A DNA stretch of 13,657 bases from a virus: the UHGV virus genome UHGV-1773670; one strand, given 5' to 3'. A program made the position numbers. This document shows, piece after piece, positions 9,001 to 12,000 of this stretch (positions are counted from its first letter, which is position 1; the number at the start of each line of letters is the position of its first letter).

Positions 9001-12000
9001 TCAGTAATTCTGTTTTCAAATTTTTCAGGGGAAAACTTTTCTTTAAGGTAATTCAGTGCGCAGGCCTCATTCTCTGGATTTTCAGCATTTTTCCCTATAG
9101 CAATAGAAATCTCAGATATCCTTGATTCAATTCTTTTACGTTTAATAAAACTAGAAAAAAAGAACCACGCAATCTGCAACCCTATCCCCAGAAATAGAGT
9201 TGCGGCAACTAGCACAGCGTAACTCATAGAATCAGACACACCAACCTCCTTAGTTTTGCGCAGGATACCATGAAAAAAGTTAACATTGGAAACGTACCAA
9301 AGATGCTCGTTCCGCTCTTTGAGAGCGGTACAATTGTGTTTTGTAGAGACTTTCCAGAATGGCAACGCCTGCATCAAAAACTTGGCGTTGACGTGCATGA
9401 CTCGGACGCCAACGGAGCGTCTCATACAATGAGTAGCGAGAATGGTGTTTTGCATGTGATAGGCGTGTTCAATGGCAAACTATCTACTATTGCCCATGAG
9501 TGCGCTCACATGGCATTCGATATCTGCTCAAGGGTAGGTGTTGATGTTGAACCAGGAAGAGCCAACGAGACTTACTGCTACTTAATGAGCAGGCTTGTTG
9601 AGTTCTGCGAGCGACATATCAAAAAGCCGGAGTGACCCGGCTTGATTATTACTTTTTGCTGTCTGGAGTTCGCTTATCCAATACCCAGCCATGACCTGGC
9701 TTTGTTGTTGGTGGAAGCCTTTCGTTGTCCTTGACGGTTGCAAAATTGTCTTTCTTACCGCCGCGTGGGCCAACTTCTTGGTATATTCCGCCGTTTTTTC
9801 CTGTGTTTTCACCTGGTTTTTTCGCCATGATATACCTCAACATACACCCGTTATTGGGCGATTAAATATTGATCTCATTTTATAAGTAGTCAATATGGCC
9901 CAGGTAAATGCAAAAATTAACCCACCTTCAGGTGGGTTTTTTGTACAAATCCTTCAGCGTATCAAACACCATCTTCTTAACAAGCTCTGACTGCTCATCA
10001 GCGATGCGTTCCGCATCGTCTCGATAGCCTGAAATTTTGGATGGCTTTGATACAGCATCAGTCACTATCTGAACTAATTCTGAATTAAGAGAGCGGCCAT
10101 TGGATTTGGCTCGCTGTTTTAGTTTTTCCTTTAATTCGTAAGGTAGCCGCAGATTAAATTGCGGGTCATCTCTTCCCATTCTTGATGCCTCGCTTTTGTG
10201 AGTGGATCGGCATCTTATTATCTGCTGGTTGCATCCTCAATAAGACCACAGTGGTCTCTTTGTTTGATTAATAATGCATCACTGTGGCAATGCTGCGGCG
10301 ATTCCTTGTATCTGGAGCAAATTAAATGACAGACATTACAGCCAATGTTGTAGTGAGTATGCCTTCGCAACTCTTCACTATGGCGCGTTCTTTTAAAGCC
10401 GTAGCCAATGGCAAAATTTATATCGGTAAAATTGACACTGACCCGGTAAATCCTGAAAACCAGATTCAGGTTTATGTAGAGAACGAAGACGGTTCTCACA
10501 TTCCTGTTTCGCAACCAATAATCATTAACGCTGCTGGATATCCGGTATATAACGGACAGATTGCCAAATTCGTTACCGTGCAAGGCCATTCTATGGCTGT
10601 TTATGATGCGTATGGTGCGCAGCAGTTCTATTTTCCTAATGTGCTGAAGTATGATCCTGATCAGTTACGGCAGCAATTAGAAGACCCAGATGGAGCGAAT
10701 AAATACCCAAAACTTCAGATAGCAAGATGGAGAGACAGTTATGATGTAAGAGGTTGGGGGGCTATTGGTGATGGTGTTCATGATGACACATCAGCTCTAT
10801 CAGAATTACTTTCTGTTGCAACAGGTGGTGAAAAGATAGATGGGCGAGGGCTTACTTTTAAAGTATCAACTCTTCCAGATGTCAGTCGATTTAAAAATGC
10901 TCGTTTTTTATTTGAGAGAATACCGGGTCAGCCTCTTTTTTATGCTTCTGAAGATTTTATCCAGGGAGAGTTATTTAAAATTACAGATACACCGTGGTAC
11001 AACGCCTGGACGCAGGATAAAACGTTTGTATATGACAATGTCATCTATGCGCCTTTTATGGCTGGAGACCGCCATGGTGTAAATAACCTCCATGTTGCAT
11101 GGGTTCGCTCAGGAGATGACGGGAAGACCTGGACAACGCCGGAATGGCTTACAGATTTACATGAAAACTATCCCACAGTTAACTATCACTGCATGAGTAT
11201 GGGGGTTGTCAGAAATCGCCTTTTTGCTGTAATTGAGACGCGGACCGTGAGCGGAAATAAACTGCAGGTTGCAGAGTTGTGGGATCGCCCAATGAGTCGC
11301 AGCCTTCGCGTTTATGGTGGTATAACGAAAGCAGCAAATCAGCAAGTCGCTTATATTCGCATTACTGATCACGGATTATTTGCTGGTGATTTTGTCAACT
11401 TCTCAAACTCTGGTGTTACAGGTGTTACCGGGAATATGACGGTGACTACTGTTATTGATAAAAATACTTTTACAGTTACGACGCAAAATACCCAGGATGT
11501 GGATCAGAATAACGAGGGTAGATACTGGAGTTTTGGTACATCATTTCACTCGTCACCATGGAGAAAAACCAGTCTTGGAACTATTCCTTCTTTTGTTGAC
11601 GGAAGCACTCCTGTTACTGAGATTCACAGTTTTGCGACGATTAGCGATAACAGTTTTGCTGTTGGCTACCATAATGGTGATATTGATCCACGCGAGCTTG
11701 GGATACTCTATTTCTCTGATGCTTTCGGTTCTCCTGGTAGCTTTGTTCGCAGACGCATACCTGTAGAATATGAGGCGAATGCATCTGAGCCATGTGTAAA
11801 ATATTATGATGGCATTCTGTATCTGACGACCAGGGGGACATTAAGTACTCAACCCGGTAGTTCATTGCACAGAAGCTCTGATTTAGGTACATCATGGAAT
11901 TCTCTTCGCTTCCCAAATAATGTTCATCACTCAAACCTTCCTTTTGCCAAAGTTGGCGATGAGCTGATTATTTTTGGCAGTGAGCGCGCATTTGGTGAGT

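What the first reader, a model, noticed from the sequence alone, without database searches (positions are those of the whole stretch)
9928..10325. Mnt repressor and operator retained without arc or ant, so the operator lies directly upstream of the tailspike
In P22, Mnt represses Pant, which drives arc and ant upstream of gene 9. Here mnt and a perfect palindromic operator (AGACCAC-A-GTGGTCT, 10243..10257) are present, but the tailspike ATG follows only ~70 bp later with no arc or ant. Mnt may therefore have been rewired to gate tailspike expression in lysogens, or this is a deletion scar of the immI region.
Basis: partly seen in the sequence, partly recalled or inferred. Interest (0 to 1): 0.45.

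Follow-up and report, generated by a model that had tools for sequence, protein, structure and literature searches.

The report
Known mnt-only remnant beside phage tailspike
This is the already described "mnt-only" version of the phage P22 secondary-immunity region, as in phages L and ST64T, sitting here in a gutted E. coli K1 prophage; the repressor and its binding site are clearly kept by selection, but nothing in the sequence shows that they drive or gate the tailspike gene.

Summary
**Observation: confirmed.**
- An 83-aa Mnt gene lies at 9928..10179 on the minus strand.
- A unique perfect palindrome, AGACCAC-A-GTGGTCT, lies at 10243..10257.
- The tailspike ATG is at 10326, 68 nt after the palindrome.
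- No arc, sar or ant is present.

**Already known.** The layout is the "mnt-only ant moron" published for ST64T, ST104 and phage L. Phage L carries the same junction. I found 81 instances (29 sequence variants) in phages and prophages.

The window is a defective prophage remnant at the lambda attachment site. It has no immC, no late antiterminator and no head genes.

**Origin.** Loss of arc-sar-ant and its terminator is supported, but it is old and shared by the whole lineage.

**Not a decaying scar.**
- mnt has dN/dS of about 0.08.
- In a set collected through the protein, 31 of 34 junctions keep the palindrome. Arm diversity is 0.03 and centre diversity 0.78.
- Gln6 replaces P22 His6, together with symmetric operator changes.

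**Against tailspike gating.**
- The old Pant hexamers are degenerate in every variant and score below the shuffle median.
- Only the leftward Pmnt keeps fixed geometry, with the operator at -44.
- Sequence between operator and tailspike is indel-rich.

**Verdict.** It is an autoregulated orphan Mnt cassette. A role in gating tailspike transcription remains possible at about 25%.

The parts
9928..10179 (-). mnt: an 83-aa ribbon-helix-helix repressor with the C-terminal Mnt tetramerisation helix. It is the Gln6 variant; the DNA-contact strand reads RDDPQFNLR.
   Evidence: The protein is identical in many prophages. dN/dS is 0.07-0.09 against the ST160 type.
9919..9938 (.). Bidirectional hairpin terminator that overlaps the mnt stop codon. 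The T-run is strong on the + strand and weaker on the - strand.
10188..10191 (-). mnt Shine-Dalgarno sequence (GAGG on the minus strand), 8 nt before the ATG.
   Evidence: Read from the sequence. It lies in a block that is invariant across the junction variants.
10212..10240 (-). Pmnt, the leftward promoter: -35 TTGAGG (10240..10235), 17-nt spacer, -10 TAAGAT (10217..10212). It is homologous to the annotated P22 Pmnt (TTGAGA-17-TATCAT).
   Evidence: Its score is 8.4-8.7 in all variants, with the operator centre fixed at about -44. This is a consensus-level call, not a demonstration of activity.
10207..10235 (+). Position of the former Pant: TCGGCA (10207..10212), 17 nt, TGCATC (10230..10235). 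It is degenerate compared with P22 TTGACA-17-TATATT.
   Evidence: It is not among the best-scoring rightward candidates, which score 5.4 or less in the window-type junction, against 14.5 for P22 Pant and 10.9 for Gln6-type modules that keep arc-ant. The sequence at the -10 position varies among variants.
10243..10257 (.). Mnt operator: the perfect palindrome AGACCAC-A-GTGGTCT. It is homologous in position to P22 Omnt (AGGTCCAC-G-GTGGACCT) and differs from it symmetrically at positions +-5 and +-7.
   Evidence: Arm diversity is 0.026 and centre diversity 0.784. Of the Mnt-ascertained junctions, 31 of 34 keep GACCAC-N-GTGGTC.
10258..10281 (.). Junction segment left by the loss of arc-sar-ant-t_ant. 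It is hypervariable, with an 11-13-nt indel between lineages. Weak similarity to the P22 arc leader fades here.
   Evidence: Diversity over the 30 columns right of the operator is 0.38.
10282..10298 (+). Small hairpin (CTGTGGC-AAT-GCTGCGG) upstream of the tailspike ribosome site. It is shared with P22, HK620 and others and belongs to the gene 9 leader, not to immI.
   Evidence: 7 pairs, 4 of them with compensatory changes. It is deleted in two variants.
10314..10317 (+). Tailspike Shine-Dalgarno sequence (GGAG).
   Evidence: Read from the sequence. It is invariant in all variants.
10326..13271 (+). Tailspike: a P22-type head-binding domain, endosialidase catalytic domains and a C-terminal chaperone domain (K1-capsule specific, CUS-3-like).

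Best explanation
**What it is.** The region is the mnt-only form of the P22-family immI region (the "ant moron"). An ancestor lost arc, sar, ant and the ant terminator. That fused the mnt-promoter-operator segment to the last ~50 bp of the gene 9 leader.

**What remains.** A self-contained cassette remains:
- the Mnt repressor;
- its own leftward promoter Pmnt;
- one palindromic operator centred about 44 bp upstream of the Pmnt start, abutting its -35 hexamer.

**How it most likely works.**
- A Mnt tetramer binds this operator. Specificity has shifted from P22 by His6 to Gln together with symmetric operator changes.
- Binding sets Mnt's own level and occludes whatever rightward initiation or read-through survives at the dead Pant.
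- In intact relatives the tailspike is still expressed as the last gene of the late operon, by antiterminated read-through from far upstream. It is not expressed from a Mnt-gated promoter.

**Selection.** The cassette is kept by purifying selection, so Mnt must do something beyond regulating itself. That further role is not identified. The candidates are a block on stray rightward transcription in lysogens, or a target in trans.

**In this window.** The cassette sits in a gutted prophage that has no C2 repressor, no late antiterminator and no head genes. Here it is a still-intact leftover.

**Shown versus inferred.**
- Shown: the anatomy, the homology, the absence of arc, ant and sar, the conservation and the promoter scores.
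- Inferred: DNA binding, autoregulation, and the route of tailspike transcription.
For: **Homology and anatomy**
- The window aligns to P22 immI through the operator and then to the gene 9 leader.
- Mnt membership is supported.
- sar is absent. arc and ant are absent.

**Same junction elsewhere**
- It occurs in phage L, in ST160, SE1, 720R6 and Gally, and in 81 instances or 29 variants overall.
- Published descriptions of mnt-only morons: PMC2629481 and PMC8022706.

**Selection**
- dN/dS is 0.07-0.09 at dS of about 0.5. All 81 ORFs are full length, 82-86 aa.
- In the set ascertained by protein rather than operator, 31 of 34 junctions keep the 13-bp palindrome.
- Arm diversity is 0.026 and the centre base is free at 0.784. 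Diversity over the 30 columns to the right is 0.38.

**Specificity covariation**
- His6 Mnt goes with GGTCCAC-N-GTGGACC.
- Gln6 Mnt goes with GACCAC-N-GTGGTC.
- A third type, QFKLR, goes with GAACCAC-G-GTGGTTC.

**Promoters**
- Pmnt is kept at fixed spacing, with the operator at -44 in all variants.
- No rightward candidate exceeds the shuffle median of 7.3, against 14.5 for P22 Pant.

**Single cis site.** No second operator copy with 2 or fewer mismatches exists in an intact relative or in 49 kb around the window.
Against: - Promoter calls rest on hexamer scoring only. Pmnt itself scores only 8.4-8.7, which falls inside the shuffle range. Weak or unusual promoters cannot be excluded.
- A gene that only regulates itself has no selective value, so the explanation leaves the selected function open.
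- The operator keeps the P22 geometry relative to the old Pant start (centre about +7), and no terminator lies between it and the tailspike. Any residual rightward initiation would therefore be Mnt-sensitive and would reach the tailspike.
- A second, diverged Mnt lineage also sits directly next to the tailspike. In one prophage it does so although a separate arc-ant module lies upstream. That hints the adjacency itself may matter.
Confidence: 0.55

Rival explanations
1. **Tailspike gate.** Mnt bound at the operator controls rightward transcription into the tailspike in lysogens. It could do so by repressing a weak surviving Pant-derived promoter, or by acting as a roadblock to read-through from upstream moron genes or the late operon. 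The cassette would then be retained for that role.
For: - The operator and Mnt are under selection although arc and ant are gone.
- The operator is the only cis site.
- It keeps the P22 position relative to the old Pant start, and no terminator separates it from the tailspike ATG.
- Some variants (L082, L086) keep a better hexamer pair, TCGGCA-18-TATAAC.
- A second Mnt lineage occupies the same place next to the tailspike.
- Villafane et al. suggested that Mnt and Arc may influence transcription into gene 9.
- Trans targets with this operator are rare.
Against: - No rightward promoter candidate is above chance in any of 29 variants.
- The key -10 positions of the old Pant are non-consensus, and the hexamer there varies like spacer sequence.
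- The distance from operator to tailspike is indel-rich, so nothing on the tailspike side is spaced with respect to the operator.
- Six loci have about 340 bp inserted between the operator and a replacement tailspike, yet keep the cassette.
Confidence: 0.25
2. **Trans-acting immunity.** The prophage keeps Mnt to silence the Pant-arc-ant module of incoming or co-resident P22-like phages that use the same operator. This would protect its own C2-type repressor from their antirepressor. The local operator would serve only for autoregulation.
For: - Modules with the identical operator in front of arc-ant and a good Pant (TTGACA-17-CATCAT) exist: L009, L062 and L073.
- In P22, prophage Mnt is what keeps ant off (plus established P22 genetics from my own knowledge).
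- The Gln6/His6 split would create separate immI specificities.
Against: - Such targets are rare. Only 3 of 51 Mnt-associated operator sites in the capped IMG/VR scan lie in front of arc-ant.
- Their closest cultured relative is an Erwinia phage.
- None is found in 5,426 complete E. coli genomes at megablast sensitivity.
- Phage L, which carries this cassette, was shown genetically to lack a functional secondary immunity against P22 (Susskind & Botstein 1978, as cited).
Confidence: 0.15
3. **Neutral scar.** mnt and the palindrome are functionless leftovers that have not yet decayed. They spread only by hitch-hiking with the recombination-prone tailspike head-binding segment.
For: - The interval between gene 16 and gene 9 is the most fluid part of these genomes.
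- HK620 shows the end state, with only remnants left.
- A few junctions have a broken palindrome (L141, L150, L156), and some alleles carry changes at conserved residues (L058, L156).
- In this window the whole prophage is defective.
Against: - dN/dS is about 0.08 at dS of about 0.5.
- Intact 82-86-aa ORFs persist in lineages down to 58% identity, where dS is saturated.
- The operator arms are about 15 times less diverse than the adjacent spacer, while the centre base is free.
Confidence: 0.05

Closest known systems
Phage P22 immI region (mnt - Pmnt/Pant with Oarc and Omnt - arc - sar - ant - t_ant), upstream of gene 9
   Same: - The same mnt gene family, at 76% identity and with both domains.
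- The same place between the gene 16 and gene 9 homologues.
- The same divergent-promoter segment, with the operator at the same position relative to Pmnt.
- The same gene 9 leader hairpin and ribosome site.
   Different: - arc, the Arc operator, sar, ant and the ant terminator are absent.
- The Pant hexamers are degenerate.
- Mnt has Gln6 instead of His6.
- The operator half-sites read AGACCAC instead of AGGTCCAC.
mnt-only "ant moron" of Salmonella phages L, ST64T and ST104 (also ST160 and SE1)
   Same: - The same architecture: mnt, then the operator AGACCAC-N-GTGGTCT, then the tailspike.
- The same Gln6 DNA-contact strand.
- The same degenerate Pant and conserved Pmnt (literature).
   Different: - Mnt is 70% identical to the L/ST64T type and 92% identical to the ST160 type.
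- The window type carries an extra 11-13 nt after the operator.
- The tailspike body is an endosialidase, not an endorhamnosidase.
- The upstream moron genes differ: sieA-like, hkcC and orf59a here, against orf62 in phage L.
CUS-3-like K1 prophages of E. coli (endosialidase tailspike followed by the neuO contingency locus)
   Same: - Endosialidase tailspike with a P22 head-binding domain.
- Heptanucleotide-repeat acetyltransferase locus downstream.
- Insertion in the E. coli chromosome.
   Different: Relatives carry different gene 16-gene 9 intervals:
- a full P22-type mnt-arc-ant (MS1718);
- an arc-ant module plus a second Mnt lineage (VTB96929v);
- a P63C-domain gene plus this same Mnt (G749).

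The window's element has also lost most of its genome.
Phage HK620 gene 16-gene 9 interval
   Same: The same flanking genes (hkcC, orf59a-like) and the same gene 9 leader.
   Different: HK620 has lost mnt as well. Only remnants and terminators are annotated there.

Membership tests
Mnt repressor family (P22 Mnt) | N-terminal ribbon-helix-helix (Arc-like) DNA-binding domain | tested here: met
   PF03869 at 2.8e-22, residues 3-50. 1mnt_A at 2.8e-34, residues 3-77.
Mnt repressor family (P22 Mnt) | C-terminal Mnt tetramerisation helix | tested here: met
   PF11423 at 2.2e-18, residues 53-80. 1qey_A at 3.1e-12, residues 53-83.
Mnt repressor family (P22 Mnt) | Beta-strand contact residues Arg2, His6, Asn8 and Arg10 (roles recalled from the P22 literature, not checked here) | tested here: inconclusive
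   Arg, Asn and Arg are kept, but position 6 is Gln. Gln6 always co-occurs with a symmetrically altered operator. This looks like a specificity variant rather than a loss.
Mnt repressor family (P22 Mnt) | Binds a single palindromic operator of about 17 bp next to its own promoter | not testable with these tools
   A perfect palindrome lies at the homologous position and is strongly conserved. Binding itself needs EMSA or footprinting.
Complete P22-type immI region | arc gene and Arc operator | tested here: not met
   tblastn finds no arc other than the weak cross-match onto mnt itself. The Arc operator segment is not conserved.
Complete P22-type immI region | ant antirepressor gene | tested here: not met
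   No match at E<=1 to three different Ant types in the window, in the 49-kb locus or in the intact relative.
Complete P22-type immI region | sar antisense RNA | tested here: not met
   Rfam RF00262 is found in the P22 control (96 bits) and not in the window.
Complete P22-type immI region | Strong rightward promoter Pant overlapped by the Mnt operator | tested here: not met
   The best rightward score is 5.4, against 14.5 for P22 and a shuffle median of 7.3. This is a consensus-level test only.
mnt-only ant moron (phage L / ST64T / ST104 type) | Lies between the gene 16 and gene 9 homologues and holds mnt but no arc or ant | tested here: met
   The gp16 homologue is at 6881..8722, mnt at 9928..10179 and the tailspike at 10326.
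mnt-only ant moron (phage L / ST64T / ST104 type) | Homologous mnt-operator-tailspike junction sequence | tested here: met
   The phage L junction, read directly, aligns with the window type throughout, with an 11-13-nt indel after the operator.

The most novel reading that the evidence does not exclude
The Gln6 Mnt-operator cassette may not be a leftover of antirepressor control. It could be a conserved module in its own right that, in lysogens, blocks transcription entering the tailspike gene. It could do so by repressing a weak promoter or by acting as a roadblock.

That would be a second, ant-independent job for Mnt. It would explain why two diverged Mnt lineages sit directly against the tailspike gene in more than 80 phages and prophages.
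Probability: 0.22. Interest if true: 0.5.

Novelty: already known. Interest (0 to 1): 0.25.

Why it matters
The layout itself is textbook-adjacent and published. The authors of the phage L genome left open whether its mnt "acquired another function or is a remnant".

The comparative results here bear on that question:
- strong purifying selection on mnt;
- a palindrome whose arms are nearly invariant while its centre base is free;
- residue 6 changing together with the operator;
- a consistently degenerate Pant.

These argue that the cassette is functional and autonomous, and that a promoter-gating role for the tailspike is unlikely. This narrows what an experiment on phage L or ST64T should test.

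For this particular window, the cassette is a passenger in a dead prophage and has no special significance.

Tried and rejected
1. **Rightward promoter search.** I looked between mnt and the tailspike with the tool scan and my own hexamer scoring. Nothing rose above chance. The hexamer frequencies in my scoring are recalled values, so the scores are rough.
2. **Second operator copies.** I searched the intact relative 720R6 and 49 kb around the window. None has 2 or fewer mismatches.
3. **The other IMG/VR operator loci as trans targets.** They lack Mnt, Arc, Ant and head-binding-domain matches. Apart from one truncated copy of this junction (L047), they are unrelated viruses, with several sites shared between near-identical unrelated contigs.
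4. **Gln6-operator arc-ant modules in E. coli and cultured phages.** I found only partial ant matches, and an Erwinia phage as the nearest relative.
5. **orf59a as a payload of the mnt transcript.** Rejected, because relatives have unrelated, convergently oriented genes after mnt.
6. **Primary papers on Mnt.** The papers on Mnt specificity and on Pmnt/Pant regulation are not in the held library. Statements about His6 and about Mnt stimulating Pmnt are from memory.
7. **Relaxed selection after tailspike replacement.** mnt alleles separated from the tailspike by an insertion show somewhat more non-synonymous changes. The counts are too small to use.
8. **The genome-contig scan** gave only 5 loci.
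Full report
**1.

The minus-strand ORF at 9928..10179 encodes an 83-aa protein, MGRDDPQFNLRLPYELKEKLKQRAKSNGRS....
- It matches Pfam Arc (PF03869) and Repressor_Mnt (PF11423).
- It matches both solved P22 Mnt fragments, 1mnt and 1qey, end to end.

AGACCACAGTGGTCT lies at 10243..10257. It is unique in the window even with two mismatches allowed, against 0.01 matches expected.

The tailspike ORF starts at 10326, 68 nt further on. It has a P22 head-binding domain fused to endosialidase domains and a chaperone domain.

No arc, ant or sar is present.
- tblastn with three kinds of Ant and two kinds of Arc finds only the expected weak Arc cross-match onto mnt.
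- Rfam finds sar in the P22 control and not in the window.

**2. Where the window comes from**

Positions 1..13478 match E. coli EC931 (NZ_CP049118.1) with one mismatch. The last 180 nt are an IS1 end.

The annotated context and PHROGs show a gutted P22-like prophage between ybhC and ybhB, the lambda attachment site. Its gene order is:
- int, an xis fragment, IS5 and abc2;
- then directly a holin fragment, endolysin, Rz and a KilA-N protein;
- terS, and terL (441 aa) joined directly to the gp20 homologue;
- the gp16 homologue, a sieA-like gene, hkcC and orf59a;
- mnt, the tailspike and the acetyltransferase locus.

It has no immC, no late antiterminator, and no portal, scaffold or coat genes.

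An intact sister prophage at the same site, vB_EcoP-720R6, has the same mnt-tailspike junction at 99% identity and also lacks ant.

**3. Comparison with P22**

In P22-pbi the annotated order is mnt, Pant/Pmnt with the Arc operator and Omnt, arc, sar, ant, a terminator, and gene 9.

The window aligns with P22 from mnt through the operator. It then resumes at the last ~50 bp before gene 9. The hexamers I assign agree with the P22 annotation:

| Element | P22 | Window |
|---|---|---|
| Pant | TTGACA-17-TATATT | TCGGCA-17-TGCATC |
| Pmnt | TTGAGA-17-TATCAT | TTGAGG-17-TAAGAT |
| Operator | AGGTCCAC-G-GTGGACCT | AGACCAC-A-GTGGTCT |

The window operator is changed symmetrically at positions +-5 and +-7 from the centre. 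Mnt has Gln at position 6 where P22 has His.

**4. The layout is common and already published**

- Villafane et al. 2008 (PMC2629481) named the gene 16-gene 9 interval the "ant moron". They state that ST64T, ST104 and Para1 carry only mnt plus one unknown gene.
- Zaworski et al. [quoted passage not shown]
- I read the phage L junction directly. It is the same: Gln6 mnt, then CAATAAGACCACCGTGGTCTTAATG..., then the tailspike.
- ST160, SE1, Gally and 720R6 have it too.

**5. Surveys**

- 51 loci had Mnt beside the palindrome.
- Almost all of these read mnt-operator-tailspike.
- Three (L009, L062, L073) read mnt-operator-arc-ant with a good Pant, TTGACA-17-CATCAT.

*Scan by protein.* That set is biased towards an intact operator, so I also collected loci through the Mnt protein: 80 viral and 5 genomic.

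| Mnt type | Operator | Neighbouring gene | Loci |
|---|---|---|---|
| His6 | GGTCCAC-N-GTGGACC | arc | 41 |
| Gln6 | GACCAC-N-GTGGTC | tailspike | 34 |
| QFKLR (third type) | GAACCAC-G-GTGGTTC | arc | 3 |

None of the 34 Gln6 loci has arc as the neighbour.

**6. The cassette is under selection**

- Across 81 junctions (29 distinct intergenic sequences) every mnt ORF is full length, 82-86 aa.
- dN/dS between the window type and the ST160 type is 0.07-0.09 at dS of about 0.5. Lineages down to 58% identity keep the strand DPQFNLR.
- In the protein-ascertained set, 31 of 34 junctions (16 of 19 distinct) keep the 13-bp palindrome.

Pairwise diversity by segment:

| Segment | Diversity |
|---|---|
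| Operator arms | 0.026 |
| Operator centre base (A, C, G and T all seen) | 0.784 |
| mnt ATG to operator | 0.107 |
| 30 columns right of operator | 0.381 |

This pattern is what a protein-bound symmetric site would show.

**7. What the operator can act on**

- With a simple hexamer score, P22 Pant reaches 14.5 and P22 Pmnt 12.4. Pant of the Gln6 arc-ant modules reaches 10.9.
- In all 29 tailspike-adjacent variants the best rightward candidate is 4.8-7.4. The median for shuffled sequence is 7.3.
- Pmnt scores 8.4-8.7 in most variants (6.5-7.7 in L035, L082 and L086), always with the operator centre about 44 bp upstream of the predicted start.
- At the old Pant -10 position the hexamer varies between variants and lacks the consensus A and T at the two most important positions in most of them.
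- The tool's own scan finds no rightward promoter there either.
- Sequence between operator and tailspike leader carries 11-13-nt indels. In six loci it carries a ~340-bp insertion from a tailspike swap.

The operator's fixed partner is therefore the promoter segment on the mnt side, not anything on the tailspike side.

No second operator copy exists in 720R6 or around the window.

**8. Mechanism**

The best-supported reading is an autoregulated orphan Mnt cassette derived from immI by an old deletion.

In intact relatives the tailspike would still be expressed by late-operon read-through. It would not be expressed from a Mnt-gated promoter. This follows from P22 biology as summarised and from my own knowledge of the gene 9 transcription work. 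It was not tested here.

Selection on Mnt and its site implies a further role that I cannot identify.
- *Tailspike gate or roadblock.* It remains possible, at about 0.25. The operator sits where it would block any residual start at the old Pant, and no terminator follows it.
- *Trans immunity against ant+ phages with the same operator.* It is weakened by the rarity of such phages. Only three loci were found, and their nearest cultured relative is an Erwinia phage. None turns up in 5,426 E. coli genomes.
- *Neutral decay.* It is contradicted by section 6.

**9. A further hint**

A second Mnt lineage (YSKYDEAQFHLRL, about 50-60% identical) also sits directly upstream of the tailspike. It has TACC-N5-GGTA at the operator position.

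In prophage VTB96929v it coexists with a separate mnt-like/arc/ant module further upstream. So the tailspike-adjacent Mnt is not there to control ant in cis. This observation keeps the "gate" reading alive.

**10. Verdict**

- The "deletion scar" reading is correct as history but wrong as a description of the present state.
- The "rewired to gate the tailspike" reading is unsupported by sequence and remains untested.
- The arrangement is already known, and this instance lies in a dead prophage. Interest is low to moderate.

Noticed in passing
window 13426..13657: An ATG is followed by 7.5 copies of the heptamer TCAAGAC. This is a neuO-type phase-variable acetyltransferase start, co-oriented with the tailspike. 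It is cut at 13479 by an IS1 end. The near-identical EC931 chromosome has 35 copies and no IS1 there, so the window comes from a different but very close genome.
   Followed up: partly
window 1..8722 (L005 17413..35263 for the whole element): The element is a gutted P22-like prophage at the lambda attachment site. abc2 abuts a holin fragment, and terL (441 aa) abuts the gp20 homologue. There are no head genes, no immC and no late antiterminator, and an IS5 lies just left of the window.
   Followed up: partly
window 10282..10298: A small hairpin lies 28-44 nt upstream of the tailspike ATG. It is conserved, with compensatory changes in 4 of 7 pairs, across Gln6-type junctions and also in P22, HK620 and MS1718. 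Two variants have it deleted, and its function is unknown. The phage L record annotates a terminator at this spot.
   Followed up: partly
window 10184..10189 and 10209..10214: The inverted repeat GATGCC/GGCATC brackets the mnt ribosome site and the region just downstream of the Pmnt -10. It is kept in almost all 29 junction variants. As RNA it folds at -8.9 kcal/mol (z = -2.6), but the outer arm overlaps the -10 hexamer and so may not be transcribed. It is unexplained.
   Followed up: partly
L006 5929..6318; L132; L133: A second Mnt lineage (about 50-60% identical, strand AQFHLRL) lies directly upstream of the tailspike, with TACC-N5-GGTA at the operator position. In L006 it lies next to a separate mnt-like/arc/ant module.
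   Followed up: partly
L100 6054..6420 (also L015, L058, L102, L107, L114): These loci show a tailspike replacement. A 13-nt stub of the old tailspike start (ATGACAGATATTA) remains after the operator. AT-rich DNA follows, and then a different tailspike ORF with an N-terminal extension.
   Followed up: partly
Mnt residue 6 and operator positions +-5/+-7 (window 10245, 10255 etc.): Mnt position 6 and the operator half-site change together across lineages. His6 goes with GGTCCAC, Gln6 with (A)GACCAC, and QFKLR with GAACCAC. The Gln6 strand PQFNLR is identical to the Arc strand.
   Followed up: yes
window 8745..9455: The 236-aa ORF in the mechanical ORF list is an over-extension. RefSeq annotates a 164-aa protein (window 8745..9239) at the position of P22 sieA, overlapped by hkcC on the other strand.
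   Followed up: no
window 10246..10253 and 10280..10287: The operator core CCACAGTG has an exact 8-nt inverted copy (CACTGTGG) that forms the 5' arm of the tailspike-leader hairpin. This occurs only in the window-type variant, so it is probably coincidence.
   Followed up: no
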